Shown: in pieces, positions 32,801 to 55,573 of the stretch
How positions within the stretch are numbered: the first letter of the stretch is position 1
Layout of the letters: each line of letters starts with the position of its first letter
Source: an uncultured Clostridia bacterium
GTDB lineage: Bacteria; Bacillota; Clostridia; Christensenellales; CAG-314
NCBI GenBank assembly: GCA_947629985.1
Contig: CANRFV010000004.1
Span: 26,308 to 90,307, forward strand
Reading direction: 5' to 3'
DNA: 64,000 bases
Notes under the pieces: model-generated
Database searches by the model: none
What the model was told of the DNA's origin: nothing
Seen by the model: only the letters and a program-made list of their open reading frames with translations
Made by a program: the position numbers and the translations under genes

Positions 32801-33712
32801 ATGAAGTACAAAGAATGGTTGGAAATCTGGTTGAATAACTATGTAAAAATTACCTGTAAAGCACGCACAAGCGATATCTACCGTTATCGGATAGAACACT
32901 GTATTGCGCCGCATTTGGGCGAGTATGAATTGCGCGATTTGACATTGCCGACATTGCAACAGTTTGTTGCCAACCTACTGTTCAATCCAAGCAGCGGCAA
33001 ATCACTGTCGGCAAATACGGTAAACGGCGTAATTTCCATTGTGCAGAATTCTCTCAAAATCGCGCTATCGCTGGGGTATGTAGGCGCTTGCGACGCCAAT
33101 AAAATTTGTCGACCGAGAACAGTCGAAAAGAGAGTGGAATGTTTTTCGTTATTGGAACAAAAGCAAATAGAAATGCAAGTAAAAAACAGCAAAAAACTCA
33201 AACTCTACGGAATTGTAATTTGTATGTACACAGGTCTGCGTTTGGGCGAGTTGCTTGCTTTGGAGTGGAAAAATGTAGATTTGAACGCTTGTCAACTTAC
33301 GGTTGAAAAGACTTGTTACTACGTCAACGGACAACGCGTTGAAGACTCGCCCAAAACAAAAAACTCTTGGCGCGTAATTCCTTTTCCCAAACAATTGTTG
33401 CCGTTGTTCCAGGAAATGTATAAAGCGCATAAAACCGAGTATGTGGTCGAAGCGAACGGAAATCCCGTTTCGGTACATTCTTATCAGCGTAGTTTTGAGT
33501 TGCTGTTAAAAAAACTCCAAATTCCGCACAAAGGCTTTCATTCTTTGCGACATACATTTGCAACACGAGCATTGGAGTGCGGAATGGACGTAAAAACGCT
33601 TGCGGAGATATTGGGACACGCCAACCCGACCGTAACACTAAAACGTTATGCGCACAGTATGCAGGAATACAAGATTCAGATGATGAACAAACTTGGCAAA
33701 TTGTTGACTTAA
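32801..33712 (+). CDS. Tyrosine recombinase / phage-type integrase
   Basis: 303 aa. N-terminal SAM-like core-binding domain. The C-terminal catalytic region ..GLRLGELLALEW.. and ..HSLRHTFATRALECGMDVKTLAEILGHANPTVTLKRYAH.. carries the R..H-x-x-R..H..Y signature. Confidence 0.9.
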   Translation: MKYKEWLEIWLNNYVKITCKARTSDIYRYRIEHCIAPHLGEYELRDLTLPTLQQFVANLLFNPSSGKSLSANTVNGVISIVQNSLKIALSLGYVGACDANKICRPRTVEKRVECFSLLEQKQIEMQVKNSKKLKLYGIVICMYTGLRLGELLALEWKNVDLNACQLTVEKTCYYVNGQRVEDSPKTKNSWRVIPFPKQLLPLFQEMYKAHKTEYVVEANGNPVSVHSYQRSFELLLKKLQIPHKGFHSLRHTFATRALECGMDVKTLAEILGHANPTVTLKRYAHSMQEYKIQMMNKLGKLLT

Positions 33713-34151: not shown

Positions 34152-34763
34152 ATGGCAGAAAAAATTATTCGATCACACCGTGAAAGGGTCAAAGCGGCAA
34201 AATCCTTGATCGCTTCTAATCCGTACTATCGTGCCGAACGCATTACAATTGTAGACAGGGAAGCGCTCGTGGAGTTTCTTCTTCTCGAGGACATTAAACG
34301 GCTATATGCGATGCGTCTGAAAAGAGAACAAAATCGTGTTATAATCGGTCCTATAGATCAAAGAGCCAAAGACAAGAACATAGAAAAGTTTTCTTGTATT
34401 ATCGATGTGTTTAACGCAGCAATCGGAGCCGCGGTCTCGGCAATAAACTCAGGAGACTACAAGCGTGTTTGGAAGGCGATTCCCGAAGGTGCATTAATGG
34501 CAGCGGCTAACAGCGTCAAAAATCTTCCCATACTTCGTGCTTTGGCAGTGGAAATGCTTCGCGATTTGTACAAAGATGCACAGGATGCTTCCAATATCAG
34601 TCATGGTTTGCTTGACGACATAAAAGAGTTGGACGAACACGATGTAAATGCTCGTAATTATTACAACATTCCGCTCACGCCGGAATCAATTGAAAATGTA
34701 ATCAGTGCTGTAGAAGCCGCAATACCCGACAAAAAAAGCACCAAAGCAACACCTAATACTTAA
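34152..34763 (+). CDS. Hypothetical alpha-helical protein (first gene of the operon)
   Basis: 203 aa, strong RBS (TAAGGAG). I recognise no family. Confidence 0.65.
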   Translation: MAEKIIRSHRERVKAAKSLIASNPYYRAERITIVDREALVEFLLLEDIKRLYAMRLKREQNRVIIGPIDQRAKDKNIEKFSCIIDVFNAAIGAAVSAINSGDYKRVWKAIPEGALMAAANSVKNLPILRALAVEMLRDLYKDAQDASNISHGLLDDIKELDEHDVNARNYYNIPLTPESIENVISAVEAAIPDKKSTKATPNT

Positions 34764-34784: not shown

Positions 34785-35405
34785 ATGGCAAAAAAACAAA
34801 CAAATGATCAAAAGATTATTGCAGCATTGGACGCTCTCGACAAATCCGTTCGCAATCTTCAACAGTTTGGCGCCAAGTACGATGCTTATATCGACGAAGC
34901 GGCATTGCGGAACGATGACGCAAGGGCGAAGCAATTGATCAAACAAAAGATTCGCGTATATGCGCTTATCGAACAACTCAAAACGCTCAAGAGCAACATC
35001 GAACTCGGCGCATACACTGCGCAAGCAATTTCGGAACTCGGCAAACTCCCCGCGGCTATTGCGGGCTGTAAGGGGCTTCTTGCGGAATCTCCCGACTTTG
35101 CAAAACTCGGCAAGAGTATTTCGTCAATTTTCCAAGACATAAATCAATCCGAACAAGAACTTGCAAAATTGAACGATATCCTTAATCCCAAGCCCGTCGA
35201 AACTATTTCCAGCCGTTTGGACGGAACTTCGGCAGACGAAACCGAAAATACCGATCAATTCAAGGCCGAATACGCGGCAATGATAGAGCGAATCAAGGAC
35301 AAAATTGCTCCGGAGTCGGTATCTAAGCCGGGCGGATTGGACGTGTCCGCAACAGGAGACATCGATTATGCCGGCATAGTTGCCGAAGAGAACAAAAGGA
35401 AGTAG
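34785..35405 (+). CDS. Helical protein, candidate ESCRT-III/Snf7-like (PspA/Vipp1 superfamily)
   Basis: 206 aa. Long amphipathic helices (..AKQLIKQKIRVYALIEQLKTLKSNIELGAYTAQAISELGKLPAAIAGCKGLL..DFAKLGKSISSIFQDINQSEQELAKLNDIL..), a basic N-terminal half and an acidic C-terminal tail. It sits immediately upstream of a Vps4-like AAA+ gene. The fold assignment is by eye only. Confidence 0.45.
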   Translation: MAKKQTNDQKIIAALDALDKSVRNLQQFGAKYDAYIDEAALRNDDARAKQLIKQKIRVYALIEQLKTLKSNIELGAYTAQAISELGKLPAAIAGCKGLLAESPDFAKLGKSISSIFQDINQSEQELAKLNDILNPKPVETISSRLDGTSADETENTDQFKAEYAAMIERIKDKIAPESVSKPGGLDVSATGDIDYAGIVAEENKRK

Positions 35406-35413: not shown

Positions 35414-36610
35414 ATGCCGGAAGCAAGCATAATCGGTATTTTTAATAACAAGGTAAGCGCCTTTAACGATGCCGTAAATGCCGATGATGTTGACGCTGTT
35501 TGCGAAGTGGGCACCGAGATGCTTCGTATTGCTTTGGAGCAATGTGCCAACCCCAATGTCAGCGCAACACTCAAAGACACCTATCGCAAACAATGTGCCA
35601 CCGTCATCAGCCATTTTGTTCATTATGCAAAAAAATCGTCTGTTACAACCCGCACGGGTAACGACGAGAGCGGTAACGGAGCAGACCCGTACTATGCGGA
35701 AAAAAACTGGTTTTCAGACGATGTCCCGCCGCTCAACTTTACTCATATAATCGGCGCGCAGGAAGTTAAGGACGCCTTTATGGTGGATGTGGTGGCACCG
35801 CTTCGACCGGAGTTTCAGGCAACGTATCGCCGTTTCAGGGGAAATCAACTTGGCACGCAAATTTTGCTGTACGGTCCGCCCGGCACAGGCAAAACGCATA
35901 TTGTCAAATGCTTGGCAGGTGCGTTAAATTGCAAAATAGCCGTTGTGCCCACAAGCGAAGTATTGGCAAGCGTGGTCGGTGTGGCGGAAAAAAACATGCG
36001 AGATATTTTTGCCCAGGCGGAACAACTGGAACGCTGCATAATTTTCTTTGACGAAATCGACAGCTTATGCTCCGACAGAAGCAGTGATGATTCGAGACAT
36101 ACGAAATCCATACTTACCACAATGCTAACATGTATGGACGGCTTTATGAAAACAAAAAAGCCCAATCAACTTCGAATAATTGTTGCCGCCACAAATTTGC
36201 CTTGGAAACTCGATTCTGCGCTTAAACGGGGCGGAAGGTTTGAAACACAAATTTACGTTCCGCTTCCCGATGCGGACGCGCGCCAAAAGTTTGTCGAGCA
36301 GGATTTGAACAAAGTGCCGCATGCGCCCGATGTTACCGTCGAATATCTTGCAAACAGGCTAAACGGCTATGCGGGTGCAGACATCAGGGCGGTAATGAAG
36401 CAAATATCCAACGAACCTTTGCGCCGTGAAATTTTGAACATTATGAAGACGGGCAAAGAACGCGGCGAAATGGTTACGCTTGCGGATTGCGACAAAGTAA
36501 TATCTTCGTATATCAACGGCGTAACACCCGAAACGTTGCTCAGATTCAAGGCTTACGATCAGGGCATTTCCTATGAGCAATTACTAAAGCAAATCAAGGG
36601 GGACGATTGA
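35414..36610 (+). CDS. Classical/meiotic-clade (Vps4/spastin/katanin-like) AAA+ ATPase with helical MIT-like N-domain
   Basis: LLYGPPGTGKTH (Walker A), IIFFDEIDSLCSDRSSDDSRHTKSILTTMLTCMDG (Walker B region) and AATNLPWKLDSALKRGGRFETQIYVPLPD (SRH) closely parallel Vps4 blocks as I remember them. The ~75-aa helical N-domain precedes a linker. Confidence 0.75.
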   Translation: MPEASIIGIFNNKVSAFNDAVNADDVDAVCEVGTEMLRIALEQCANPNVSATLKDTYRKQCATVISHFVHYAKKSSVTTRTGNDESGNGADPYYAEKNWFSDDVPPLNFTHIIGAQEVKDAFMVDVVAPLRPEFQATYRRFRGNQLGTQILLYGPPGTGKTHIVKCLAGALNCKIAVVPTSEVLASVVGVAEKNMRDIFAQAEQLERCIIFFDEIDSLCSDRSSDDSRHTKSILTTMLTCMDGFMKTKKPNQLRIIVAATNLPWKLDSALKRGGRFETQIYVPLPDADARQKFVEQDLNKVPHAPDVTVEYLANRLNGYAGADIRAVMKQISNEPLRREILNIMKTGKERGEMVTLADCDKVISSYINGVTPETLLRFKAYDQGISYEQLLKQIKGDD

Positions 36611-37627
36611 TTGGTCGACCGAGACAAAATTGCAACATTTTATTTCAACGCGCGGGAATTTGTAAAACAAAACAATCCTAAAGCGGCGAGAGCGTACGTT
36701 CTCGCCATTTTGAACAATGCGGTTGCAACTTACAACCAAGCAAAAACCATTCTTGCCAAAGCAAAAACGCAAGTTTTTTTAGATACCTGGTTAGCGGTGT
36801 CGCGAGAATTGCGCACAAACGGCATAACAGACTTCGTCTTGAAGTGTTTTGGGTTACCTACAAACAAGAATGAACAGGTTTTGCCCAACAAGTCTGCCGA
36901 GCAACAACCCGAAATCTCGACAATTGCCGACACGCCCACTCAGCGCCACTTGCCGAGCAACGAAATAGACATTGCGGGGCTCATCGACGAATCTGCCGGC
37001 GCTCAAGGTTGGCGCGCCGAAGTATTTGAAAAAAACAAAATGGCTGTTGTGGGGATATCCGCTTCCAACTCGGAACATACGTCCACCGGCACAGGGTTCA
37101 TAATTTCGTCTAAAGGATATCTTCTAACCAACGATCACGTCGTTTATGATGAAAATGCGCAAGGATATTTTCCGAAAATTCAGATGACGTTTGCCGGGGA
37201 CAAAAAAAAGTACAAACTGACCGTTCTGTTTTCCGACAAAAATTCGGACGTGGCGCTTTGCTTTTTTGATCCGAACAACGTGGGAGAGTTTGCCGTCGTA
37301 AGGCGCATTGCCGATTACTCTCGGGTGTTACAGGGGGCGGAATGCCTTGTTATAGGCAACGCATTTGGCATGGGGCTTGCCCCGTTTGCGGGCGGCGTTC
37401 GTTTTACCAAGAGCAATGACGGTAATCTTGTGCATACCGCGCCGTCTAACCCGGGCGATTCCGGCGGGCCGGTATTAAACAGGCAAGGGGAATGTATCGG
37501 CATCAACAAGTCCAAGACGCTAACGGTAGACAACGTTTCGGCAGACGGCTACGTCAACGCCACGCCGATGGACAAGATCGACGAATTGCTGACCAAGTGG
37601 TGCAGTCAAAATGACATTGTGTTGTAA
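36611..37627 (+). CDS. Trypsin-like (S1/Trypsin_2) serine protease with MIT-like N-domain
   Basis: TTG start 9 nt after AAGGGGGA. N-terminal ~85-aa helical domain. The protease part reads ..GTGFIISSKGYLLTNDHVV.. (His), ..DVALCFFD.. (Asp), ..NPGDSGGPVLNRQGECIGIN.. (Ser). Confidence 0.75.
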   Translation: MVDRDKIATFYFNAREFVKQNNPKAARAYVLAILNNAVATYNQAKTILAKAKTQVFLDTWLAVSRELRTNGITDFVLKCFGLPTNKNEQVLPNKSAEQQPEISTIADTPTQRHLPSNEIDIAGLIDESAGAQGWRAEVFEKNKMAVVGISASNSEHTSTGTGFIISSKGYLLTNDHVVYDENAQGYFPKIQMTFAGDKKKYKLTVLFSDKNSDVALCFFDPNNVGEFAVVRRIADYSRVLQGAECLVIGNAFGMGLAPFAGGVRFTKSNDGNLVHTAPSNPGDSGGPVLNRQGECIGINKSKTLTVDNVSADGYVNATPMDKIDELLTKWCSQNDIVL

Positions 37628-40600
37628 TGTCGGGAGAGAGATGGCGAATGAAGAACGCAATTAAGGTAGGAAAATTTTTACAGATGCTTCAGGATAGTAC
37701 GTGGGAGTCCGACTATCCCCAATTATACGAAAAATATTACCGTCAGATAGCGGCTCTCCTTAGCGGATTTAATGATTGTACGCTCGAAGGATTGAGCAGT
37801 TTGGAAGGACTGACGGATAGTGCCAACTTTGCTTCGTTTCTCAGATGCGATACTCTGGGAGAAGAATCCGAAGATAGCAAAGAAAGAACAGTAGATAATA
37901 GGTTTTCTGCGATACTTGCCGATATTAAAACATGGCATGACAACGAAGTTAAGCGTTTACATAATAATAGTGCTACAGTCAAACAAGCAATCCGGGATGA
38001 CGCCAATTCAAAACGGGTAACACTTGTATCTGGGATTGTATCTGGGATCTTTACAGCGGCGTTTGGTCCCTTAGCGTATCTTCTCGGAATGTCGTACGAC
38101 GAAATCGCCTTTTATATCACGGGATTGGTTCCAATTATTCCTCTTGTCATTGCCCTTTTTGCCGGAATTTATAACGGAGTGCAGAATAAGAAATTTCATA
38201 GGACTTACGGCTGTTCCATTGCTAACGCGAAAAGGCTTATCATTACCGAAGAAGAATACAAAGCAGAAATCAAACAAGCGCGACAACTACGTTTAGTGAA
38301 ACATCATAGTGGCAACATACGCAAAGCAAAGCGCATATATAACAAATTGCTCAAGAGAAACTCAACGGATCCAAACTGTTTTGTTGGGTTGCTTGCACTT
38401 CTGTCCGATAATTTTACAAAATATTCTAGTAGACACAAGGAAGATAATTTAATTGAAGATATTGAAGCATCAAAAGGCGATGACAATTATTCGCGCTTAG
38501 ACGCAGACTACAAAGAGGATTATAAAAAATATACGGATGAAAAAGTTAACCCTTATAAACAAAGACAAAAGCAAAACCAAACAAGAAAAAAGGAACAACA
38601 TCGCGAGCGTGTTGCACACGCCATTTCGGTCGGGCAACAACTTGGAATATGTGCTGTTCTGCTACTTCCAACGCTTTTCTCGATCGCAGTTTTAGTTTTG
38701 GTATATTGCTTGCCCGTAAAGACATTTGACGATTGGACGGGTTGGCTATTCACAATTAGCTTTGCATTGGATTGCCTATCTGTGATAGCGGTAATTGTGC
38801 TTTGGATAGTACTTGCAGTAGCAGATAGAAATCCGGATTTTTCCGGTTTTGGGGCGGGACCTTTTGGTATAGTGGCAGCGGTATTTGGAATATGCGGGGG
38901 AAATGTTATTATTATTAGTATAGACATGCCGCACTGGCTGCCAATTCTGATGACGGTTGTTTGCCTTGCTATATGGTTAACTTCTCTTATTTGGGGTCTT
39001 GTAGACACAGACACATGCAAACGGCGTCTTCTTCTTGTTTGCATTTGCAGCGTTTTATTTGGTTGTGCGCTTCGCAGCGGTGGCTGGACTTTCTCGGAAT
39101 TTGAATCATATTATACTGAAAACCCGGACGGAACATATACATATCTTGTTTGGGATGAGAATGTGGAAATTTTGCAAATCCCATCCGAATATCAAGGAAA
39201 ACCTGTTACTGCTATCAGTCGAGCCGACAATGTCGATCTATTACACCTAAAATCTGTATTCATCCCCGAAAGTGTGACGTCGATTGAATTCGGGACTTTT
39301 TCCGGTTGTAGCGCGCTTACAAATATTACAGTGCCGTATGTGGGATATTATGATATATCCGGAGTTAATGGTTACGAGGGTGAAGCGGAGGCTTTGCGCC
39401 CCATTGGGTATTTGTTTGGCACTTCGCCTTACAGTGGGGGCGTAGCGACAGAGCAGGAGCATTGTTGGGGAAAGTATCTCAGCGGTGACAAGGCGGGCGA
39501 AGAATCTGAATTTTTCAACACTTACTATATTCCGGAATCACTGAAACATGTAACCGTGCTTGGCGGTGAAGTTTGCAACGGAGCGTTCTATGGCTGTACA
39601 AATCTTGAAAGCGTTACATTAGGTGCCGGAGTGACGGCGATTGGCAAACATGCGTTTCAAGATTGTACTTCTCTGGTGAGTGTCGCTATTGGCGAAGGCG
39701 TTACCGGTATTGGGGAAGATGCGTTTTTGAATTGTAGTGGACTTACGAGCATATATATCCCCGAAAGTGTGACGTCGATTGAATTCGGGACTTTTTCCGG
39801 TTGTGGCGCGCTCACAAATATTACAGTGCCGTATGTGGGATATTATGATATAGCCGGAGTTAAAGATTACGAGGGTGAAGCGGAGGCTTTGCGCCCCATT
39901 GGGTATTTGTTTGGCACTTCGCCTTACAGTGGGGGCGTAGCGACAGAGCAGGAGCATTGTTGGGGAAAGTATCTCAGCGGTGACAAGGCGGGCGAAGAAT
40001 CTGAATTTTTCAACACTTACTATATTCCGGAATCACTGAAACATGTAACCGTGCTTGGCGGTGAAGTTTGCAACGGAGCGTTCTATGGCTGTACAAATCT
40101 TGAAAGCGTTACATTAGGTGACGATGTGACTGCGATTGGCGAACATGCGTTTCAAGATTGTACTTCTCTTGTGAGTGTCGCCATTGGCGATGGCGTTACC
40201 GGTATTGGGAAAGACGCGTTTCTAAACTGCAATGCCGTTCAAAAAAACAAGGGCATTTTGTATGTTGGCCATTGGGTTGTCGGGTGTGATAACACTGTGA
40301 CAGAAGCAGAACTATCAAATGATGCTACGGGAATTGCAAATTATGCTTTTGCAGATTTCGCATCTCTTACTTCCGTAATCTTGAACGAAAAACTAAAGAT
40401 TATTGGAGAAGGCGTATTTCAAGGAACAGGAATAACCACAATGGTAATTCCACAATCGGTTGCGGTCATTGGCGCCAATGCTTTTAGTGGGTGTAAACTT
40501 TCAGAAGTTGTTTTTGATAATGTTGATGAATGGTATGCAGACAAAACTTATGTACCGTATTCCGACCTACTTGATGCTACAAAAGCCGCAAATTGCTTAA

Positions 40601-40638
40601 CTTCGACATATGTCGAATGTGTGTGGAAACGCGGCTAA
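37627..40638 (+). CDS. Giant polytopic membrane protein: cytoplasmic helical N-region, ~8 TM, extracellular BspA-type leucine-rich repeats
   Basis: 1003 aa. TM clusters at about aa 140-185 and 335-470. From ~aa 520 there are repeated ..IPESVTSIEFGTFSGC.ALTNITVP.. / ..AFYGCTNLESVTLG..VTAIG..AFQDCTSLVSV.. LRR_5-like units. Confidence 0.7.
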   Translation: MSGERWRMKNAIKVGKFLQMLQDSTWESDYPQLYEKYYRQIAALLSGFNDCTLEGLSSLEGLTDSANFASFLRCDTLGEESEDSKERTVDNRFSAILADIKTWHDNEVKRLHNNSATVKQAIRDDANSKRVTLVSGIVSGIFTAAFGPLAYLLGMSYDEIAFYITGLVPIIPLVIALFAGIYNGVQNKKFHRTYGCSIANAKRLIITEEEYKAEIKQARQLRLVKHHSGNIRKAKRIYNKLLKRNSTDPNCFVGLLALLSDNFTKYSSRHKEDNLIEDIEASKGDDNYSRLDADYKEDYKKYTDEKVNPYKQRQKQNQTRKKEQHRERVAHAISVGQQLGICAVLLLPTLFSIAVLVLVYCLPVKTFDDWTGWLFTISFALDCLSVIAVIVLWIVLAVADRNPDFSGFGAGPFGIVAAVFGICGGNVIIISIDMPHWLPILMTVVCLAIWLTSLIWGLVDTDTCKRRLLLVCICSVLFGCALRSGGWTFSEFESYYTENPDGTYTYLVWDENVEILQIPSEYQGKPVTAISRADNVDLLHLKSVFIPESVTSIEFGTFSGCSALTNITVPYVGYYDISGVNGYEGEAEALRPIGYLFGTSPYSGGVATEQEHCWGKYLSGDKAGEESEFFNTYYIPESLKHVTVLGGEVCNGAFYGCTNLESVTLGAGVTAIGKHAFQDCTSLVSVAIGEGVTGIGEDAFLNCSGLTSIYIPESVTSIEFGTFSGCGALTNITVPYVGYYDIAGVKDYEGEAEALRPIGYLFGTSPYSGGVATEQEHCWGKYLSGDKAGEESEFFNTYYIPESLKHVTVLGGEVCNGAFYGCTNLESVTLGDDVTAIGEHAFQDCTSLVSVAIGDGVTGIGKDAFLNCNAVQKNKGILYVGHWVVGCDNTVTEAELSNDATGIANYAFADFASLTSVILNEKLKIIGEGVFQGTGITTMVIPQSVAVIGANAFSGCKLSEVVFDNVDEWYADKTYVPYSDLLDATKAANCLTSTYVECVWKRG
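39262..40232 (+). repeat. 495-bp in-frame tandem duplication (2 copies) inside the LRR ectodomain
   Basis: 39262-39756 versus 39757-~40232. The first ~364 nt of each unit differ at only a handful of positions. The protein units are 165 aa. Confidence 0.9.
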
Positions 40639-40666
40639 TAAATGTTAATGAAAAAAGGAGAAACAT

Positions 40667-42196
40667 ATGACTTTTTCAGATGTATTTCGTGAAAAGTATA
40701 GATTGGTGCTTCGGGCTGCGAGAGCAAACGATCGTGATGCAACTCTTGCGGGATTGAATAATTTATACGACCTGTTTGCCGCGCAATATTCGCTCAACAA
40801 CGGCGATAGCATAGTAGTAAAGGCAAAACTTTCCTATTGGCAGGATGTGTTTGGCGGATATATTGAAATAATTCGCACAAACGGGCTGCAAGACAGGCGT
40901 GTGCAAAAGTTTTTCGGCATTATCGACGATGCGGACGTGCCATCGTTTGGAGACATCTTGAGCGGCAACGTCATTACGCCATTGCCGTTAACTCCGTCAT
41001 CGCCGTCCGTGGATATTGCAGGCATTGTAGACGCGGAGCGGAACGAGCAACCGACGGATTCGTCGCAAACTCAGCCTAGCGCTCCCGTTGGTTCGTCGCC
41101 GGTCGATTCGGATATTCCGCAACCTGTTGTCTCACCCCCGCGTGAAGCGCCCAAACAGCCGCCGTTGCAACCTTCCGCCGCAAACGACGGCGCAAAGGCG
41201 ATATCGGACGAAACCCCCGCCGAAACAATTGCCGCACCCGCTTTTACCCCCAACACGTTGGAAGGGTTTATCGGGCAGCAACACATAGTAAAGGTGTTGC
41301 TAAAGGAGATTGCCATAGCCAAGGCGGAAGGTAGACGTCATCTCGACAACATTCTGCTACTTGGCAATCCCGGTTTGGGCAAATCCACATTGATGAAACT
41401 GATCGCCGACAAGTTGGGGGTCAAATTCGAGTGGATGGATTGCTCGCAATATCACAACAGTCAGCAAGCGCTAAAGGCGCTGCAAAACTTTTTGCTGAAA
41501 ATAGCGCGCAACAACGAGCCTGTGGTAATTGCTTTTGACGAAATTCACTGCTTGCCGGAGATGTTGCAATCCAGCCTGCTTACCTTGTTGGAGAGCCGAA
41601 TTTACGTTTCTCCGCCCGATGTTAACGGGCAAATTAAGCGCATACCCATTGACGAATTTACATTTATTGCCGCAACCACCGACGATAACAAAGTGCTTTC
41701 CACAATCAAGGATCGTTGTCTTCGGTTAAAGTTTCAAATGAAGGACTACACGGCAGATGAATTGGCGCAGATTTACAGAACAAAAGTTTCGGCAATGGGG
41801 CTTACCATCACCGAAGAAGCAATACAAACTTGCATACCGCGCAGTCGCGGTTCAATGCGGTACGTCAACTCGTTTGTGGAAGGGTTGGGTCGAGAACTGT
41901 ATGACGCCGACGGCAACCGACTTTCCACCCACATAGACCTTGCAACCGCATTGCGCTTTTTTGAAGAGCGCGAAATCGACGATATGGGGTTGGAAAAAAG
42001 GGATTTGGAAATATTGTCCGTTCTCAACGAAATGTCGACGCCTATAGGGGCGGATGCCCTTGCGGCGCGAGTGGGCTTGGAACCGAAAAAGTACCTTTCC
42101 GAATACGAGCCCTATCTCATTCGTATTGGATTTGTTGATATCTCCGGCAGGGGCAGAAGTTTGACAGAAAAGGGGAAAGAATATTTGACTCGATAA
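40667..42196 (+). CDS. RuvB-like AAA+ ATPase (all three RuvB domains) with MIT-like N-domain and Pro/Ser linker
   Basis: ..LEGFIGQQHIVKVLLKEIAIAKAEGRRHLDNILLLGNPGLGKSTL.., ..VIAFDEIHCLP.., ..FTFIAATTDDNKVLSTIKDRC.., ..SRGSMRYVNSFV.. and a C-terminal winged helix ..GLEKRDLEILSVL..PIGADALAARVGLEPKKYLSEYEPYLIRIGFV.. follow RuvB block by block. The extra ~190 aa at the N-terminus are not found in RuvB. Confidence 0.75.
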   Translation: MTFSDVFREKYRLVLRAARANDRDATLAGLNNLYDLFAAQYSLNNGDSIVVKAKLSYWQDVFGGYIEIIRTNGLQDRRVQKFFGIIDDADVPSFGDILSGNVITPLPLTPSSPSVDIAGIVDAERNEQPTDSSQTQPSAPVGSSPVDSDIPQPVVSPPREAPKQPPLQPSAANDGAKAISDETPAETIAAPAFTPNTLEGFIGQQHIVKVLLKEIAIAKAEGRRHLDNILLLGNPGLGKSTLMKLIADKLGVKFEWMDCSQYHNSQQALKALQNFLLKIARNNEPVVIAFDEIHCLPEMLQSSLLTLLESRIYVSPPDVNGQIKRIPIDEFTFIAATTDDNKVLSTIKDRCLRLKFQMKDYTADELAQIYRTKVSAMGLTITEEAIQTCIPRSRGSMRYVNSFVEGLGRELYDADGNRLSTHIDLATALRFFEEREIDDMGLEKRDLEILSVLNEMSTPIGADALAARVGLEPKKYLSEYEPYLIRIGFVDISGRGRSLTEKGKEYLTR

Positions 42197-42216: not shown

Positions 42217-42435
42217 ATGAAAAACAGAAAATTTTGGTGGATGATTGCGATTGTTTGTATATTCATTTGTATTGCATTGGCTACCATAGTTTTATCGGCA
42301 CTATCCTTGGCAGACGTGTTTGGCGAAAACAACAATGTGGTTGAAGTTGTGATGATCGTCCTTGGCATTGTGAGTTGTTGCTGCGGGCTTGGTGCATTGA
42401 TTTACGAAATTTTGTCGGATAAAAAGAAAAAGTAA
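42217..42435 (+). CDS. Small 2-TM membrane protein
   Basis: 72 aa, strong RBS. The C-terminal ..GLGALIYEILSDKKKK echoes ..GISFFIYECISDKNKP in the next protein. Confidence 0.55.
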   Translation: MKNRKFWWMIAIVCIFICIALATIVLSALSLADVFGENNNVVEVVMIVLGIVSCCCGLGALIYEILSDKKKK

Positions 42436-42458
42436 AATACTAAAGGAGAGATAAAGAT

Positions 42459-45400
42459 ATGACAATTGAAGAATTAATCAGCGATATAAATTCGCTAATA
42501 GGAAATCTGTCAAGTGATGTGGAAAACTATACAGGCATACACAATTTATTGGAAAACACACTACAGGATCTCACAGCTTTTAGGAGATGTTGCGACGAAG
42601 AAAACTATTGTGTAGACAAAAAGGTGCGTAAGTTGGTCGAAAGTCGGAATCCGAATTTGTCAAGTCCTCTTACCTATACGTGGGCGAAACATTTATTTAA
42701 TGCCGTATCGGCTATGACCGATAAAAATTCTCAAAAGCCAAAGAGAAGTCGCCGTTATATTAGCATAATAATTATCACAGGAATATTATTGTCCGCCCTA
42801 TTGGGATTAAGTATAGCGAGTTTTTTCCTATTGCCGAAAAATGAAAGGAACCTGTATAGTCTTTTTACGATGTTGGTTGGGATAGCGGACTTTATTTGCG
42901 GTATTAGCTTTTTCATCTATGAGTGTATAAGCGACAAAAACAAGCCGTTGGCTACTAATGGCGATAATGCCCCAAGTGAAAGGACGTATTCTAAGAGCCA
43001 AAGAAAATGTGCATACATTTGTGCTGTCGGGGCATTTGTTTTGTCTATGTTTGCATTGGTAATTATGTTGATTTTGGCCTTTAAGCCGTTTCAAATACCA
43101 TATGAAAAGGCGCAATCAATGTGGGCGTGGTCTTGTATATCAAGCATTTTGTCTCTAATTGTTGTCGCGTTTGGAGTATTTCAACTAAAACGCGGCACAT
43201 TGGTTCAAGTATTTGTGTTGGTGACAGTAGTAGTTTGTATCGGTTCAATTGTCTTTCAACATCTTTTCAAACCGGTTGCGGCAAGGAACGATATTGTTGA
43301 ATATATTGCCAACGAAGACGGCTCGGCATATCAGGCAGTAATTATACCGCAGGATGTTGAAACAGACTATGTTATAGCGGCGAATTACGACGGTAAACCT
43401 ATTACAAGTATCGGACGAAAAGACCCCGAAAAACCGTTGTATATCAAATCGTTAGATATCGGCGCCAACATTACAACAATAGGCGACGAGTCCTTTGCAC
43501 ACAGCCGCGGATTGAGGCATATTACATTGCCGCAAAACGTTACCGAAATTGGCGCAAGAGCATTTTATGACTGCGTTGACCTTGTCGATGTTACGGTAAA
43601 CTGTAATTTAACCAAAGTGGGCAACGAAGTATTTGACAAGTGCAACGCGCTTTCCACTGTTTGGTGGAATAGTAACGGTAATTCTGTCGGATTTGGAGAT
43701 ATATTCGTGTCGTGTGAAAGTATCCGAACCGTTATCTTGGGACATTCGATTAATTCAATCGCAACCAATATGTTCAATAATTGTAAATCTATCGAAGAAG
43801 TTGTACTGTATGAAAATATCAAATCGATAGGTACCGGAGCATTTGCAAATTGCGATAGTTTGCAATCGGTATTTTATCGCGGGAACGCAGATCAATGGCA
43901 GAACATAACAGTGGGTAGAGATTGCCAATCGTTGATGTCTGCACAGATTTATTATTATAGTCAACAAGAGCCGCAATTAAGTGATGACGGACTTTCGTAC
44001 AATGGTAATTATTGGCACTCAGACGATAGTGGTTTGCCTGTTGTGTGGAAATATACTCCGCCTACTTACACGGTTAAATTTTATGCAGATGGTAAACTTT
44101 GTAAAGAAGTAACTTATATTAAAAATGATACGCATATAGAAGAGCCTGCAGTGCCGGCGAAAAAAGGTTATACCGGCATATGGGAAAATTATACTCTAAA
44201 TAACAATGATATTGTCGTAAACGCTGTTTATACGGCCAAAACATATACGCTTAATTTGGACTACAACGGCGCGGACGGCGAAAATAGCAAAAAATCTATT
44301 ACAGCAACATACGATCAACCCGTAGTGGGGTTACCGACACCAACAAAAACAGGTTATGCATTTGATGGTTGGTATATTGGTGAACAAAAAATATCTTCTT
44401 CAACCAAGTGGCAAAACGATGCCGAAGAATCTTATACGCTTATCGCACATTATAAGACAATATACGTTGTCAGATTCTATGTCGGGGGTAAACATTATAA
44501 GGATATTAAATATTTGGAAGGACAAAGTACAATAGAAGAGCCTGCAGTACCTGTAAAAAAAGGCTATACAGGCGCATGGGAAAAATATACACTAAATAAC
44601 AGCAATATTACCGTGAACGCAGTTTATACGGCTAAAACCTACAAGTTGATTTTTGACTACAATGGTGCCACAGACAGCGTCGGATTGGATTCGAAAATAG
44701 TAACGTATGGTGAAATAGTTGGAGATTTGCCACAACCTACGGCAGGCCTTGCCAATATATTTGTTGGGTGGTATATCGGCGATGTTTGTATCAAATCTTC
44801 AACTGTTTGGACATACGATGAGCAAGATGTTTATACCGTACAGGCACATTATGAATGTTTGGATTTCTATGGCGGCTCAGGAACGGAACAAAATCCGTTT
44901 TTGATTGAATCGGTTGATGATTTCTTGAACATCAAGCTTTATCCGACAGTTTACTATGAGTTAATTGCGGATATAGACATGACCGGTATTGATTATACAG
45001 TAATCAACTCTTTTTCGGGAAATTTTGACGGCAAAGGTCATTGGATTAACAACCTTTCTTTATATTCAAATGCTGTCGAAACTAACAAAATCGGCATATT
45101 CGGGGTCAATAACGGTACGGTGCGTAATTTGAATTTGCGAAACTGTTCGTTTACATTATCTCCGCCGCATCACAACAATACCGTAACAAATTATTGTGGA
45201 ACAATTGCGGGCGTTAACAACGGAACGATTGAAAATTGTCATATTCTTGAATCCAAGGTTATTTCGAATTCCAGCGATGTTGCGGATAAATTTATGGCGC
45301 AATTCAACGAAGATCCGCGTGAAATTGTACGTGGATCGGCAAATTGGGCAAAGTGGATAACACAAGAGTTTGCTGCGCACATATCAAGTTGGCCCGCTGT

Positions 45401-45878
45401 TCCAATGGGTGTTTTTGCAGGCGGTATTGTCGGACAAAATTCGGGCAATGTGATTAAATGCTCGTTCGGCGGCAAGGTTGAGGCGAACATGTATAATATG
45501 CATTGCTATTGCAACGACAACAAGGCTGGAACTAGTGGTAAGGGACAAGCCAATTGTTTTGCAGGCGGGTTGGCTGGACAAAACGAAGGAACAATATCGC
45601 AATCGGAAGCAAATGCACAAGTGCGTGCTTGGATTGAATTAAACAATAACGGAAATGGCAATGGTTGGGTTGGCGATATGTACGTTTGGGGAGTTTGTTA
45701 TGCTTGCGGATTAGTGGGTAGCAATGTCAATGGAACGGTAGATGGTACGTCTAATTGTACACAACAAGCGGATTACAGAATATTTGCTCCGCAATCTGTT
45801 TTCGGTCCACAATACAATTGGTCCACAAAAGGGCATGCCGACAACCTTACTATTGGCACATCGGATACTTATAAATAA
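42459..45878 (+). CDS. Giant polytopic membrane protein: helical N-region, TM block, BspA-type LRRs, Listeria-Bacteroides-type repeats and GLUG-motif domain
   Basis: 1139 aa. LRR_5-like units (..ITTIGDESFAHSRGLRHITLPQNVTEIGARAFYDC..). Two pairs of Flg_new/InlB-B-like repeats (..YTVKFYADGK..GYTGIWENY..; ..TGYAFDGWYIG..). C-terminal GLUG-like repeats (FAGGIVGQNSGNV, FAGGLAGQNEGTI, ACGLVGSNVNGTV). Confidence 0.7.
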   Translation: MTIEELISDINSLIGNLSSDVENYTGIHNLLENTLQDLTAFRRCCDEENYCVDKKVRKLVESRNPNLSSPLTYTWAKHLFNAVSAMTDKNSQKPKRSRRYISIIIITGILLSALLGLSIASFFLLPKNERNLYSLFTMLVGIADFICGISFFIYECISDKNKPLATNGDNAPSERTYSKSQRKCAYICAVGAFVLSMFALVIMLILAFKPFQIPYEKAQSMWAWSCISSILSLIVVAFGVFQLKRGTLVQVFVLVTVVVCIGSIVFQHLFKPVAARNDIVEYIANEDGSAYQAVIIPQDVETDYVIAANYDGKPITSIGRKDPEKPLYIKSLDIGANITTIGDESFAHSRGLRHITLPQNVTEIGARAFYDCVDLVDVTVNCNLTKVGNEVFDKCNALSTVWWNSNGNSVGFGDIFVSCESIRTVILGHSINSIATNMFNNCKSIEEVVLYENIKSIGTGAFANCDSLQSVFYRGNADQWQNITVGRDCQSLMSAQIYYYSQQEPQLSDDGLSYNGNYWHSDDSGLPVVWKYTPPTYTVKFYADGKLCKEVTYIKNDTHIEEPAVPAKKGYTGIWENYTLNNNDIVVNAVYTAKTYTLNLDYNGADGENSKKSITATYDQPVVGLPTPTKTGYAFDGWYIGEQKISSSTKWQNDAEESYTLIAHYKTIYVVRFYVGGKHYKDIKYLEGQSTIEEPAVPVKKGYTGAWEKYTLNNSNITVNAVYTAKTYKLIFDYNGATDSVGLDSKIVTYGEIVGDLPQPTAGLANIFVGWYIGDVCIKSSTVWTYDEQDVYTVQAHYECLDFYGGSGTEQNPFLIESVDDFLNIKLYPTVYYELIADIDMTGIDYTVINSFSGNFDGKGHWINNLSLYSNAVETNKIGIFGVNNGTVRNLNLRNCSFTLSPPHHNNTVTNYCGTIAGVNNGTIENCHILESKVISNSSDVADKFMAQFNEDPREIVRGSANWAKWITQEFAAHISSWPAVPMGVFAGGIVGQNSGNVIKCSFGGKVEANMYNMHCYCNDNKAGTSGKGQANCFAGGLAGQNEGTISQSEANAQVRAWIELNNNGNGNGWVGDMYVWGVCYACGLVGSNVNGTVDGTSNCTQQADYRIFAPQSVFGPQYNWSTKGHADNLTIGTSDTYK

Positions 45879-45904: not shown

Positions 45905-46606
45905 ATGACAATCGACACACAAGCAATCAAAAATTTATTACAGCGCGAAGCACCGGAAAGCGACAGCGACGAGCAGTTGCTTTGTAGTGCCGACGGCAAA
46001 TTGAACGAGATTTTGCAACAGGCAACCGAAGAAGACTCGGCAGCGGTGGAGTCTATACGCGCATACGCCGAGTCCAACGAAACAAACAAGCGCAAATTGC
46101 TTGCTTTTTGCGCCAATTTCCAAGATCCAACCGTGCGCGGGCAACAGGCGGTTTGCGGCGGGGCGCAAATTCAATTACATGCTATGTTGGAAGATAGCGA
46201 ATTGTACCAATTGCAACAATTTGTCAAGAAACATCAATATGATATTTCTTTCCCGTCTACCGTGTACGAAATGATGGATCAACGCAATATGACCGCCCCG
46301 CAAGTGTATAGCAAAGCTATGATGAGTCGGCAAGACTTTGCGCGCGCAACCGACCCGCGTGGCAAAAATGTAACGCGCAGAGTGGTTTGGCAAATCATTA
46401 TCGGTTTGCACTGTACAATCGATGAGGCAGAAAGCGTTTTGTTTTCTGCGGGATATACAATGCACAAAACTCGTCTTGATTTGATAATGGAGTACTTTGT
46501 CAAACACAAAAACTACGATATGTATGCTATAAATGACGCCTTACAGAGTTGTAACGAAAAAATGTATCTGTTATACAGACAGGTAAGAGACGATGACGTC
46601 GGCTAA
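45905..46606 (+). CDS. Hypothetical protein with degenerate HTH-like C-terminal half
   Basis: 233 aa. ..MTAPQVYSKAMMSRQDFARATDPRGKNVTRRVVWQIIIGLHCTIDEAESVLFSAGYTM.. resembles a divergent XRE-type HTH module common in Clostridia. Last gene before the terminator. Confidence 0.5.
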   Translation: MTIDTQAIKNLLQREAPESDSDEQLLCSADGKLNEILQQATEEDSAAVESIRAYAESNETNKRKLLAFCANFQDPTVRGQQAVCGGAQIQLHAMLEDSELYQLQQFVKKHQYDISFPSTVYEMMDQRNMTAPQVYSKAMMSRQDFARATDPRGKNVTRRVVWQIIIGLHCTIDEAESVLFSAGYTMHKTRLDLIMEYFVKHKNYDMYAINDALQSCNEKMYLLYRQVRDDDVG

Positions 46607-55571: not shown

Positions 55572-55573
55572 AT

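What the first reader, a model, noticed from the sequence alone, without database searches (positions are those of the whole stretch)
35414..40930. One ~80-aa three-helix (MIT-like) N-terminal module is shared by three different enzymes: AAA+ ATPase, serine protease and RuvB-like ATPase
Seen: the N-termini of the products of 35414, 36611 and 40667 are all predicted-helical, of similar length, and followed by a low-complexity linker before the catalytic domain. The protease and the RuvB-like protein align clearly:
- ..AKAKTQVFLDTWLAVSRELRTNGITDFVLKCFGLP
- ..VKAKLSYWQDVFGGYIEIIRTNGLQDRRVQKFFGI

The AAA+ N-domain (..VNADDVDAVCEVGTEMLRIALEQCANPNVSATLKDTYRKQCATVISHFVHYAKK) has the spacing of a MIT domain.

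Established knowledge: MIT domains dock onto C-terminal MIM motifs of ESCRT-III subunits. In eukaryotes this is how Vps4, spastin and proteases/deubiquitinases such as calpain-7/AMSH are recruited.

Inference: a common adaptor domain on three enzymes encoded next to an ESCRT-III-like gene suggests recruitment of proteolytic and DNA-translocase activities to one polymer. I have not seen this architecture described in bacteria.
Basis: partly seen in the sequence, partly recalled or inferred. Interest (0 to 1): 0.75.

Follow-up and report, generated by a model that had tools for sequence, protein, structure and literature searches.

The report
Bacterial ESCRT-like operon with docking modules
A gut-bacterial mobile element carries a conserved operon in which a probable ESCRT-III-like protein, an AAA+ ATPase, a serine protease and a RuvB-like ATPase appear to be linked by small three-helix N-terminal domains and one shared short peptide motif. 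That is the wiring eukaryotes and archaea use to bring enzymes to ESCRT-III polymers, and I found no description of it in bacteria.

Summary
The protease (36611) and the RuvB-like ATPase (40667) share one homologous ~85-aa N-terminal module (BLASTP E=6e-6; hhalign 95.5%, E=1.4e-8). An exhaustive search of 1.84 billion proteins finds this module only on these two enzyme types.

The AAA+ N-domain (35414) has the same three-helix layout, but sequence homology to that module is not established (best hhalign 40%, E=2.9e-4, in register).

AlphaFold models of the AAA+ and RuvB-like N-domains match solved MIT domains best (archaeal Vps4 MIT: TM 0.70/0.81, rmsd 1.9 Å, and rank 1). However, no Foldseek hit is significant, and Pfam MIT and PDB profile searches fail. 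'MIT-like' therefore holds at fold level only.

One motif, ΦDΦxGΦΦ, occurs only three times in all six frames of the window:
- the C-terminal tail of the Snf7-like protein
- the protease linker
- the RuvB-like linker

Each copy is a conserved island in a variable linker across 22 related loci.

The core gene order (unknown – Snf7-like – AAA+ – protease – RuvB-like) is conserved in gut Clostridia and Acholeplasmatales, next to an integrase, and recurs in a divergent paralogous family.

The ESCRT-III assignment stays below Pfam's threshold. Binding was not tested. I rate it a new variant of a known kind.

The parts
32801..33712 (+). Tyrosine recombinase (integrase) immediately upstream of the operon
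   Evidence: Pfam Phage_integrase E=1.4e-25. An integrase lies upstream of the operon in L001, L005, L007, L020 and L021.
34152..34763 (+). Conserved helical protein of unknown family (203 aa), first gene of the core; it has a conserved C-terminal helix ...IENVISAVEAAIPDKK
   Evidence: No Pfam or NCBIfam family. Present in all 22 related loci and tandemly duplicated in three of them. Not similar to the Snf7-like protein (hhalign Prob 0.2%).
34785..35405 (+). Snf7/ESCRT-III-like protein (206 aa): basic N-terminus, helical body, acidic and Pro-rich linker, conserved tail
   Evidence: Pfam Snf7 E=4.9e-5, 23.5 bits, below the cut-off of 27.3. The same hit occurs in 16 of 17 orthologues, best E=4.1e-6. 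252 homologues, none carrying a functional name.
35352..35402 (+). C-terminal tail motif TGDIDYAGIVAEENKRK of the Snf7-like protein (candidate docking motif)
   Evidence: Nearly invariant after a variable linker in 17 orthologues. Mean column identity is 0.83 against 0.55 in the linker. Asp194 is invariant across 16 diverse sequences, including the paralogous systems.
35414..36610 (+). Classical-clade AAA+ ATPase (398 aa), single cassette
   Evidence: PF00004 E=1.2e-35 and AAA_lid_3. NCBIfam: CDC48 160.8 bits, FtsH 150.3, CdvC 136.4, all below their cut-offs. Walker A, most of Walker B and nearly all SRH positions are invariant in 23 orthologues; the pore-loop-1 position reads VVG.
35414..35638 (+). 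AAA+ N-terminal three-helix domain (residues 1-75), MIT-like by predicted fold
   Evidence: AF2 mean pLDDT 78.5 (core 84-90), helices 3-22, 26-45 and 51-75. Best TM match is the Vps4 MIT domain 2v6y (0.70/0.81, rmsd 1.9 Å), but E=0.8.
36611..37627 (+). Trypsin-like (HtrA-type core, no PDZ) serine protease (338 aa), TTG start
   Evidence: Trypsin_2 E=1.7e-18. DegP/HtrA NCBIfam models match the core only. The catalytic His, Asp and Ser are each invariant in 23 orthologues.
36611..36859 (+). N-module of the protease (residues 1-83), homologous to the RuvB-like N-module
   Evidence: BLASTP E=6e-6. hhalign Prob 95.5%, E=1.4e-8.
36962..36988 (+). Linker motif EIDIAGLID in the protease
   Evidence: One of only three matches to D[ILVYFM]AG[ILVM][ILVM] in six frames of the 64-kb window. 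A motif-like island is visible in all 22 orthologues within a length-variable linker. Column identity is 0.75 against 0.33 in the linker.
37627..40638 (+). Variable insert: multi-pass membrane protein with BspA-type LRR ectodomain (1003 aa)
   Evidence: LRR_5 E=1.8e-59. Zero to two such genes occupy this position in related loci. It contains an internal 495-bp tandem duplication.
40667..42196 (+). RuvB-like AAA+ ATPase (509 aa) with a C-terminal winged helix
   Evidence: RuvB_N E=3.1e-17 and RuvB_C E=1.3e-14. NCBIfam RuvB 160.5 bits against a cut-off of 282. Walker A/B, sensor 1 and the Arg motif are conserved.
40667..40924 (+). N-module of the RuvB-like protein (residues 1-86)
   Evidence: AF2 pLDDT 83-93 in the helices 3-19, 23-43 and 48-72. 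Foldseek ranks 1-2 are 2w2u (Sulfolobus Vps4 MIT with CdvB), prob 0.97, E=0.65. About 22 of the top 50 hits are MIT-type domains.
41006..41032 (+). Linker motif SVDIAGIVD in the RuvB-like protein
   Evidence: Recognisable in most of 19 orthologues and degenerate in L009, L015 and L019. Column identity is 0.57 against 0.33 in the linker. Disordered in the AF2 model (pLDDT below 50).
42217..45878 (+). 72-aa membrane protein and a second membrane/LRR/Flg_new surface protein (variable cargo)
45905..46606 (+). 233-aa protein of unknown family that ends the module
   Evidence: Homologues follow the RuvB-like gene, directly or after further LRR genes, in L003, L006, L008 and L011. By eye, proteins of about 195 aa close the divergent systems L026 and L027 with a similar C-terminal region.

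Best explanation
The region is the core of a conserved operon carried by an integrative element of gut Clostridia and Acholeplasmatales. It works like an ESCRT-III/Vps4 system with extra client enzymes.

**Proposed mechanism.**
1. The 206-aa Snf7-like protein forms a polymer at the membrane and displays a flexible C-terminal tail that ends in the motif ΦDΦxGΦΦ plus acidic residues.
2. The AAA+ ATPase uses its three-helix, MIT-like N-domain to read that tail. It then remodels or disassembles the polymer, as Vps4/CdvC does.
3. The serine protease and the RuvB-like ATPase each carry a second type of three-helix, MIT-like N-module. This module ties them to the same assembly.
4. In the window's clade, both enzymes also carry a copy of the tail motif in their disordered linkers.

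The result is a multivalent domain-motif network that concentrates proteolytic and RuvB-type translocase activity on one polymer.

**Shown.**
- Gene order and its conservation.
- Homology of the two N-modules.
- Three-helix models for the AAA+ and RuvB-like N-domains.
- Sharing and conservation of the motif.
- Intact catalytic motifs.

**Inferred.**
- The ESCRT-III fold.
- Which domain binds which motif.
- Membrane action.
- The biological role.
For: **Conserved core.** The order unknown – Snf7-like – AAA+ – protease – [0-2 LRR genes] – RuvB-like holds, where the contig reaches far enough, in the 22 loci from different genera. A divergent family (AAA+ 40-44% identical) has the same order in L026-L028.

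**N-module.** Homology. The module is restricted to these two enzyme architectures in 1.84e9 proteins.

**Three-helix models.** Both have the same helix boundaries. Solved MIT domains are the top or best-TM matches. The AAA+ N-domain aligns with the N-module in register at Prob 40.5%.

**Shared motif.**
- It occurs only 3 times in six frames of the window, all in this operon, and only in these 3 of the island's 18 ORFs.
- Each copy is a conserved island in a variable linker.
- A regex-free test of the best shared 7-mer recovers the motif between tail and protease linker, with z>2 in 12 of 22 loci.
- The strict motif occurs in the linkers of 8 of 27 divergent representatives, against 0.135 expected from shuffling.

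**Tail.** The tail Asp is invariant even in the paralogous systems.

**L023.** This locus keeps the Snf7-like tail and the AAA+ but has neither N-module enzyme. That points to the AAA+ N-domain as a tail reader.

**Snf7.** It is the only Pfam hit with E<0.01 for the window's protein, recurs in 16 of 17 orthologues, and is colinear from the N-terminus.

**Catalytic motifs.** They are conserved, the key catalytic residues invariant or nearly so.
Against: - No Foldseek match is significant (all E>0.3). bS20 and FliS three-helix bundles score alongside the MIT domains.
- Pfam MIT and PDB profile searches find no MIT relationship.
- The Snf7 hit is below Pfam's cut-off. PDB profile searches find no ESCRT-III protein. 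The five divergent Snf7-like paralogues do not hit Snf7 individually.
- The AAA+ scores higher against the CDC48 and FtsH models than against CdvC. It lacks a detectable Vps4_C domain and has VVG, with no aromatic residue, at the pore-loop-1 position.
- AF2 did not dock the RuvB-like linker motif onto its own N-module (pLDDT below 50).
- The linker motif is degenerate or absent in some orthologues and in L026-L028.
- No interaction was computed or measured.
Confidence: 0.45

Rival explanations
1. The shared motif is a processing site rather than a docking motif. The operon's own trypsin-like protease cuts the Snf7-like tail, its own linker and the RuvB-like linker. Cutting releases the catalytic domains from inhibitory or anchoring N-terminal three-helix prodomains, as in a protease-triggered activation cascade of a conflict or defence system.
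For: In the two enzymes the motif lies in disordered linkers exactly between the N-domain and the catalytic domain. A protease is a core gene. ATPase-plus-protease pairs are known defence modules, and the AAA+ core matches IetA at 118 bits.
Against: - L023 keeps the Snf7-like tail but has no protease in the locus. L029 has the RuvB-like gene but no protease.
- In the Snf7-like protein the motif sits 7-9 residues from the C-terminus, which is typical of a docking tail.
- The IetA match covers only the generic AAA core, and the CDC48 model scores higher. The IetS-type subtilase is absent.
Confidence: 0.15
2. The N-domains are generic three-helix oligomerisation or regulatory bundles with no relation to MIT, and the 34785 product is merely a coiled-coil scaffold. 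On this view the operon is an accessory module of a conjugative or mobilisable element, for example surface-protein handling or DNA processing, and the ESCRT analogy is superficial.
For: No sequence method links any part to MIT. The Snf7 hit is sub-threshold and there is no PDB support. Small helical bundles give non-specific Foldseek hits. The element carries TraG/VirD4, ClpP and an FtsK-gamma protein.
Against: - MIT domains are the top-ranked or best-TM family for two independently modelled domains.
- Snf7 is the only Pfam hit with E<0.01 for the window's protein, and it recurs in 16 of 17 orthologues.
- A conserved extreme C-terminal motif, shared with partner enzymes and encoded next to a classical AAA+ with a three-helix N-domain, is the specific signature of ESCRT-III/Vps4 wiring.
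Confidence: 0.25
3. The motif is a degradation or unfolding tag. It is read by the AAA+ pore or by the element's ClpP, and it marks the Snf7-like protein, the protease and the RuvB-like protein for turnover.
For: The motif is unstructured and hydrophobic with a Gly-Φ-Φ core. ClpP is encoded in the same element in several loci. Vps4 threads ESCRT-III tails through its pore (PMC5716660, abstract listed).
Against: - The residue before Gly is variable (A, S, T, E, Q), unlike [LIV]-G-[FL] ClpP-docking loops (the loop consensus is from my own knowledge).
- ClpP is not seen in the flanks of L026-L028.
- This does not explain why the enzymes carry a dedicated conserved N-module.
Confidence: 0.1

Closest known systems
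Archaeal Cdv / ESCRT-III-Vps4 system (CdvB + CdvC; Sulfolobus Vps4 MIT-CdvB MIM2 complex, PDB 2w2u and 2v6y)
   Same: - A small helical polymer-type protein with a flexible C-terminal docking tail is encoded directly upstream of a single-cassette classical AAA+ ATPase that has an N-terminal three-helix domain.
- The Sulfolobus Vps4 MIT domain is the best structural match to both modelled N-domains.
- The CdvC model aligns over residues 69-381 of the AAA+.
   Different: - The host is bacterial and the system sits on a mobile element.
- The AAA+ is no closer to CdvC than to CDC48 or FtsH, lacks a detectable Vps4_C, and has no aromatic pore-loop residue.
- The tail motif ΦDΦxGΦΦ does not fit the MIM1 or MIM2 consensus as I recall them.
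- There is no CdvA.
- A protease and a RuvB-like ATPase are fixed members.
Eukaryotic MIT-domain enzymes recruited to ESCRT-III tails (VPS4, spastin, katanin, calpain-7, AMSH, USP8; PMC9477494, PMC10586806)
   Same: Different catalytic domains, an AAA+ ATPase and a protease, each carry an N-terminal three-helix module followed by a flexible linker. This is the logic of one polymer tail recruiting several enzymes.
   Different: - Here the module on the protease and the RuvB-like protein is a sequence family of its own, with only 46 representative clusters.
- A RuvB-type ATPase is a client, which I do not know from eukaryotic ESCRT cofactors.
- The clients also carry a copy of the tail motif themselves.
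Bacterial PspA/Vipp1 (ESCRT-III superfamily) with PspF or other AAA+ partners (PMC11237479, PMC7619361)
   Same: An ESCRT-III-superfamily protein associated with an AAA+ ATPase in a bacterial operon. Occasional bacterial Snf7/PspA-AAA+ neighbourhoods have been noted.
   Different: - There is no PspA_IM30 match; the weak hit is to Snf7.
- The AAA+ is classical-clade with a three-helix N-domain, not PspF.
- The protease, RuvB-like protein, N-module and shared motif are not part of the described Psp neighbourhoods.
IetAS anti-phage system (AAA+ IetA + serine protease IetS)
   Same: An AAA+ ATPase encoded next to a serine protease. The PADLOC IetA models match the AAA core (118.5 bits).
   Different: The match is generic to classical AAA+ proteins. 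To my knowledge IetS is a subtilase, whereas this protease is trypsin-like. IetAS, as I know it, has no Snf7-like protein, RuvB-like protein or N-module.

Membership tests
MIT domain (Pfam PF04212) | Antiparallel three-helix bundle of about 75 residues at the N-terminus of the enzyme | tested here: met
   AF2 models: AAA+ helices 3-22, 26-45, 51-75; RuvB-like helices 3-19, 23-43, 48-72. The protease is covered by its homology to the RuvB-like module.
MIT domain (Pfam PF04212) | Sequence match to the MIT profile or to MIT-containing PDB chains | tested here: not met
   Pfam MIT matches 0 of 40 N-module sequences and 1 of 18 AAA+ N-domains, at E=0.11. PDB profile searches A9, A10 and A12 return designed helical proteins and bS20, with no MIT chain.
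MIT domain (Pfam PF04212) | Significant structural similarity to solved MIT domains | tested here: inconclusive
   Best TM match is 2v6y (0.70/0.81, rmsd 1.9 Å); rank 1 is 2w2u (prob 0.97). About 11 and about 22 of the top 50 hits are MIT-type. All E-values are above 0.3, and other three-helix bundles are interleaved.
MIT domain (Pfam PF04212) | Binds a MIM motif in an ESCRT-III tail | not testable with these tools
   No complex prediction was available. The AF2 single-chain model left the in-cis motif disordered.
ESCRT-III / Snf7 (PF03357) | Profile match at or above Pfam's gathering score | tested here: not met
   23.5 bits against 27.3. 16 of 17 orthologues match, best E=4.1e-6, all below the cut-off. 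The family consensus scores 21.2 bits over model positions 2-129. No ESCRT-III chain is found in PDB profile searches.
ESCRT-III / Snf7 (PF03357) | Helical-hairpin core with a flexible C-terminal tail carrying a conserved docking motif | tested here: inconclusive
   The tail motif after a variable linker is shown.
ESCRT-III / Snf7 (PF03357) | Polymerises on membranes | not testable with these tools
   This needs an experiment.
Vps4 / CdvC | Single classical AAA+ cassette with Walker A/B and SRH, encoded next to the ESCRT-III gene | tested here: met
Vps4 / CdvC | Equivalog-level similarity (NCBIfam NF041006 cut-off 650 bits), Vps4_C domain, aromatic pore loop 1 | tested here: not met
   CdvC scores 136.4 bits, below CDC48 (160.8) and FtsH (150.3). 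There is no PF09336 hit. The pore-loop position reads VVG.
RuvB | RuvB_N + AAA lid + RuvB_C winged-helix architecture | tested here: met
   PF05496 E=3e-17 and PF05491 E=1e-14. The NCBIfam RuvB alignment covers residues 190-508 against profile positions 16-325 of 330.
RuvB | Equivalog score (cut-off 282 bits) and a RuvA partner | tested here: not met
   160.5 bits. No RuvA-like gene in the Pfam-scanned ORFs of the window.
HtrA/DegP protease | Trypsin-fold core with a His-Asp-Ser triad | tested here: met
   Trypsin_2 E=1.7e-18. The triad is invariant in 23 orthologues.
HtrA/DegP protease | C-terminal PDZ domain(s) and periplasmic targeting | tested here: not met
   No PDZ hit. NCBIfam scores of 79 bits or less, against cut-offs of 250 or more. 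The N-terminus is a helical module, not a signal peptide.
IetAS defence system | IetA ATPase paired with an IetS subtilase | tested here: not met
   IetA matches only the AAA core. The adjacent protease is Trypsin_2, and there is no IetS hit.

The most novel reading that the evidence does not exclude
A mobile genetic element of wall-poor or wall-less gut Bacillota encodes its own ESCRT-III/Vps4-type membrane-remodelling machine. On its polymer the machine assembles a RuvB-type DNA translocase and a protease through MIT/MIM-like wiring. Together with the element's TraG/VirD4 coupling protein and variable LRR surface proteins, it mediates vesicle- or bridge-based DNA transfer or release, a bacterial counterpart of ESCRT-dependent DNA-carrying vesicles in Sulfolobus. 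If so, Vps4-style ATP-driven ESCRT-III dynamics and multi-enzyme MIT recruitment are not limited to archaea and eukaryotes.
Probability: 0.1. Interest if true: 0.9.

Novelty: new variant of a known kind. Interest (0 to 1): 0.7.

Why it matters
**The open question.** ATP-driven ESCRT-III remodelling by a Vps4-type ATPase, and recruitment of diverse enzymes to ESCRT-III tails through MIT domains, are regarded as archaeal and eukaryotic traits. A 2025 review states that a Vps4-like ATPase appears absent in bacteria (PMC7619361).

**What this operon offers.** It is a compact bacterial system conserved in at least 22 genomes, with a divergent sister family. It has the same logic plus two unexpected fixed clients, a protease and a RuvB-like ATPase.

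**Why it is testable.** The hypothesis is sharp. It involves three small domains, one 7-residue motif and an invariant Asp. It could be settled with peptides, a two-hybrid assay or a complex prediction.

**If confirmed.**
- It would extend the MIT-MIM recruitment principle to bacteria.
- It would define a new domain family and a new motif class.
- It would link ESCRT-like polymers to mobile-element biology.

**If refuted.** It still defines a widespread, uncharacterised five-gene module of gut mobile elements.

Tried and rejected
- **Homologue search with the protease N-region alone.** It returned one truncated protein, so the word index is unsuited to short queries.
- **Structure prediction with alignments built from fetched loci.** That query returned the RuvB-like orthologues and a paralogous AAA+ family, but not the direct AAA+ orthologues.
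- **Sequence links to MIT.** Pfam on 40 and 18 domain sequences and three PDB profile searches were all negative.
- **Sequence links of the Snf7-like family to solved ESCRT-III structures.** Negative. A consensus sequence did not lift the Pfam score over the cut-off.
- **Homology of unk203 to the Snf7-like protein.** Rejected (Prob 0.2%).
- **Phage or plasmid origin.** No relatives in phage records, plasmid records or IMG/VR. BFVD fold search was uninformative.
- **Known defence system.** Only generic IetA and TRIP13 AAA-core matches.
- **Lineage-specific co-variation of tail and linker motif in L029 (DIDQAINDI against DIDNFIDSI).** Not significant after composition-preserving shuffles (p=0.35), so I dropped it.
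- **Shared motif in the divergent systems L026-L028.** Not detected by the unbiased 7-mer test.
- **Rfam scan of the repeat-flanked segment upstream.** No family.

Full report
**What is at the coordinates.** The finding spans three genes of a co-directional cluster on the + strand.
- 34152-34763 encodes a 203-aa protein with no known family.
- 34785-35405 encodes a 206-aa protein whose only Pfam hit with E<0.01 is Snf7 (E=4.9e-5, 23.5 bits, cut-off 27.3).
- 35414-36610 encodes an AAA+ ATPase (PF00004, E=1e-35).
- 36611-37627 encodes a Trypsin_2 protease.
- 37627-40638 encodes a membrane protein with BspA-type LRRs.
- 40667-42196 encodes a RuvB_N + RuvB_C protein.
- A 72-aa membrane protein, a second membrane/LRR protein and a 233-aa protein of unknown family follow.

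A tyrosine recombinase (32801-33712) lies directly upstream. ClpP, a TraG/VirD4 coupling protein, an FtsK-gamma protein and a HEPN protein lie downstream. The whole stretch from about 26 to 56 kb has lower GC than its flanks and ends at a tRNA cluster. The setting is therefore an integrated mobile element.

**Checking the observation.**

The protease and RuvB-like N-termini are homologous.
- BLASTP gives E=6e-6 with 30% identity over 114 residues.
- Profiles built from 23 and 19 orthologues give hhalign Prob 95.5%, E=1.4e-8 over 124 columns.
- An exhaustive HMMER search of 1.84 billion representative proteins with a profile of this module found only 46 clusters.
- Apart from gene fragments and one TPR-repeat protein, the match sits at residues 1-88 of either a 306-369-aa trypsin-like protein or a 448-685-aa RuvB-like protein.

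This is a real, rare domain family that is tied to these two enzymes.

The AAA+ N-terminus is a different matter.
- There is no pairwise similarity.
- Narrow profiles give Prob 0.2% and 2.3%.
- Broader profiles that include a paralogous AAA+ family give Prob 40.5%, E=2.9e-4, aligned in register over all three helices.

Shared ancestry is possible but not shown.

**Structure.** Two AlphaFold2 jobs were available.
- The AAA+ N-domain was modelled from 10 sequences, including 16-25%-identical paralogues. It folds as helices 3-22, 26-45 and 51-75, with mean pLDDT 78.5 and 84-90 in the core.
- The RuvB-like N-region was modelled from 25 sequences. It folds as helices 3-19, 23-43 and 48-72 plus two short helices, with pLDDT 83-93.

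The helix boundaries of the two models are nearly the same.

Foldseek against the PDB gave no match at E≤0.001 for either model. For the AAA+ domain the best TM-scores are to MIT domains:
- Sulfolobus Vps4 MIT, 2v6y: TMq 0.70, TMt 0.81, rmsd 1.9 Å.
- VPS4B MIT: 0.67/0.71.

For the RuvB-like module, ranks 1-2 are the Sulfolobus Vps4 MIT-CdvB complex 2w2u (prob 0.97). They are followed by the katanin p60 N-domain and the NRBF2, MITD1, VPS4 and spartin MIT domains. About 22 of the top 50 hits are MIT-type. Ribosomal protein bS20 and FliS are interleaved.

No sequence method supports MIT membership. 'MIT-like' is therefore a statement about the predicted fold, not about family membership.

The BLASTP alignment extends into the linkers, where both proteins have (I/V)DIAG(L/I)(I/V)D. 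The Snf7-like protein ends in GDIDYAGIVAEENKRK.
- The pattern D[ILVYFM]AG[ILVM][ILVM] occurs exactly three times in all six reading frames of the 64-kb window, at these three places.
- A looser pattern hits only these 3 of the island's 18 ORFs.
- In 17 orthologues of the Snf7-like protein the tail TGDIDY(A/E)GI(I/V)xEENKKK is nearly invariant, while the preceding linker varies.
- In all 22 protease orthologues a motif-like island (E/D)IDΦxGLIEE...QGW sits inside a linker that varies in length and sequence.
- Most RuvB-like orthologues have ΦDΦxGIΦ, which is degenerate in three loci.
- Mean column identity, motif against linker, is 0.75/0.33 for the protease, 0.57/0.33 for the RuvB-like protein and 0.83/0.55 for the Snf7-like tail.
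- A regex-free test took the best ungapped 7-mer shared by two segments and compared it with composition-preserving shuffles. It recovers the motif between tail and protease linker in most loci, with z>2 in 12 of 22. The tail-RuvB-like signal is weaker, at 5 of 22.
- Among 27 divergent full-length representatives of the N-module family, the strict motif is in the linker of 8, against 0.135 expected. A loose form is in 17, against 2.1 expected.
- Neither the AAA+ nor the 203-aa protein carries the motif.

**Conservation of the system.** A scan of one genome per species found 22 loci. They come from uncultured gut Clostridia, including Christensenella-like organisms and Candidatus Coproplasma, and from Acholeplasmatales and Anaeroplasma. 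Wherever the contig reaches far enough, the order is unknown-203 – Snf7-like – AAA+ – protease – [0-2 variable LRR membrane genes] – RuvB-like. An integrase is often just upstream, with ClpP, a 526-aa protein and TraG nearby.

A paralogous AAA+ family is 40-44% identical, has the same N-domain and carries an extra C-terminal extension. It marks more distant systems.
- L026 and L027 have helical proteins – Snf7-like – AAA+ – Trypsin_2 – RuvB-like, followed by small proteins of about 130 and about 195 aa. L028 has the same order until its contig ends inside the RuvB-like gene.
- L029 has Snf7-like – AAA+ – RuvB-like, without a protease.
- L023 has the Snf7-like protein and the AAA+ with LRR proteins, but neither N-module enzyme.

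The proteins directly upstream of these AAA+ genes are homologues of the window's Snf7-like protein (hmmsearch E=3e-14 to 1e-6; E=1.2e-10 for L029). Their tails keep an invariant Asp followed by hydrophobic residues...SIDDIIGGLDD...RIDAIARMLDD...DIDSLARMLDG...TMDTFQGFMDD and ...FDIDQAINDID. L023 retains the tail without the N-module enzymes, so the AAA+ N-domain is the most economical candidate for the tail reader.

**Are the enzymes active?** Walker A, most of Walker B and nearly all SRH positions of the AAA+, and the His, Asp and Ser of the protease, are invariant in 23 orthologues. Walker A/B, sensor 1 and the Arg motif of the RuvB-like protein are conserved. The AAA+ belongs to the classical clade but is not specifically Vps4.
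- NCBIfam scores are CDC48 160.8, FtsH 150.3 and CdvC 136.4 bits. The CdvC alignment is the most complete, covering residues 69-381. All are far below their cut-offs.
- There is no Vps4_C hit.
- The pore-loop-1 position reads VVG rather than an aromatic-containing triplet.

**How it most likely works.** I favour a MIT/MIM-style network.
1. The Snf7-like protein forms a membrane-associated polymer with exposed tails.
2. The AAA+ reads the tail with its three-helix N-domain and remodels the polymer.
3. The protease and the RuvB-like ATPase are tied to the same assembly through their own three-helix module.
4. In the window's clade, both enzymes also carry a copy of the tail motif, which the same reader can bind.

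Which domain binds which motif is inferred, not shown. AF2 left the in-cis motif of the RuvB-like protein disordered, which argues weakly against simple intramolecular autoinhibition.

The rival explanations are listed below.
- The motif is the protease's processing site. This is weakened by L023 and L029, which keep the motif-bearing partners without a protease.
- The ESCRT analogy is superficial. This is supported by the sub-threshold Snf7 hit and the failure of all MIT sequence tests.
- The motif is an unfolding or ClpP tag.

**Comparison with what is known.**
- The closest system is archaeal CdvB/CdvC.
- The closest principle is the eukaryotic recruitment of VPS4, spastin, katanin, calpain-7 and deubiquitinases to ESCRT-III tails by MIT domains (PMC9477494, PMC10586806).
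- Bacterial PspA/Vipp1 belong to the ESCRT-III superfamily. The PSP survey noted occasional Snf7/PspA-AAA+ neighbourhoods in bacteria (PMC11237479).
- A 2025 review states that a Vps4-like ATPase appears absent in bacteria (PMC7619361).
- The comprehensive ESCRT survey holds neither 'protease' nor 'RuvB' anywhere in its text (PMC11188069).
- Four full-text searches found no description of this operon, of the N-module or of the motif.

I therefore rate it a new variant of a known kind. Two caveats apply: the ESCRT-III and MIT assignments are below formal thresholds, and no interaction has been tested.

**Verdict.** The evidence for a conserved module is strong, both for the domain shared by two enzymes and for the motif shared by three proteins. 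The ESCRT/MIT reading is coherent, but it rests on fold-level and sub-threshold evidence. Interest is 0.7.

Noticed in passing
window 39257-40051: A 495-bp tandem duplication (98% identical over 300 nt) inside the LRR ectodomain of the membrane protein gene 37627-40638. This suggests recent repeat expansion of a surface protein.
   Followed up: partly
window 27224-27538 and 30805-31086: A direct repeat of about 315 bp (99% identical over 183 nt) brackets a 3.5-kb segment. That segment carries an SF1 helicase/DUF2726 gene split into two overlapping ORFs (29240-30340 and 27678-29267, minus strand), with MkoA/MkoC-like PADLOC hits. No Rfam family matches the repeat.
   Followed up: partly
window 34152-34763; L001, L002, L006: The 203-aa first gene of the operon has its own conserved C-terminal helix (...EEIEEVIRAAEAAIPDKKK in orthologues). 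It is tandemly duplicated in three related loci. It could carry a second, different docking motif.
   Followed up: partly
window 45905-46606; L026 13103-13699; L027 11354-11932: By eye, the 233-aa protein that closes the module resembles proteins at the same position in divergent systems (shared ...SAGY...LDL..EYF.K..YDM... region). It is probably part of the system.
   Followed up: partly
L023 (P0156), L026-L028, L029: A sister family of systems with a 436-519-aa AAA+. The 511-519-aa versions carry a C-terminal extension that ends in a conserved ...YDLSFL motif. Some members lack the protease or both client enzymes, and LRR_5 genes occur in L023 and L028.
   Followed up: partly
window 47056-52460: The same element encodes ClpP (overlapping a DUF1292 ORF), a 526-aa protein of unknown family, a TraG/VirD4 coupling protein, and an FtsK-gamma protein with a D/E-rich triplet repeat (51550-51646). 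No relaxase or VirB4 was detected among the ORFs scanned against Pfam.
   Followed up: no
window 55496-55730: A tRNA-Val/Glu/Met cluster on the minus strand at the right edge of the low-GC island. It is a possible integration-site marker.
   Followed up: no
window 42217-42435 and 42459-45878: The C-terminal end of the 72-aa membrane protein (..ALIYEILSDKKKK) resembles a membrane segment of the following large LRR protein (..FFIYECISDKNKP). It looks like a duplicated gene fragment.
   Followed up: no
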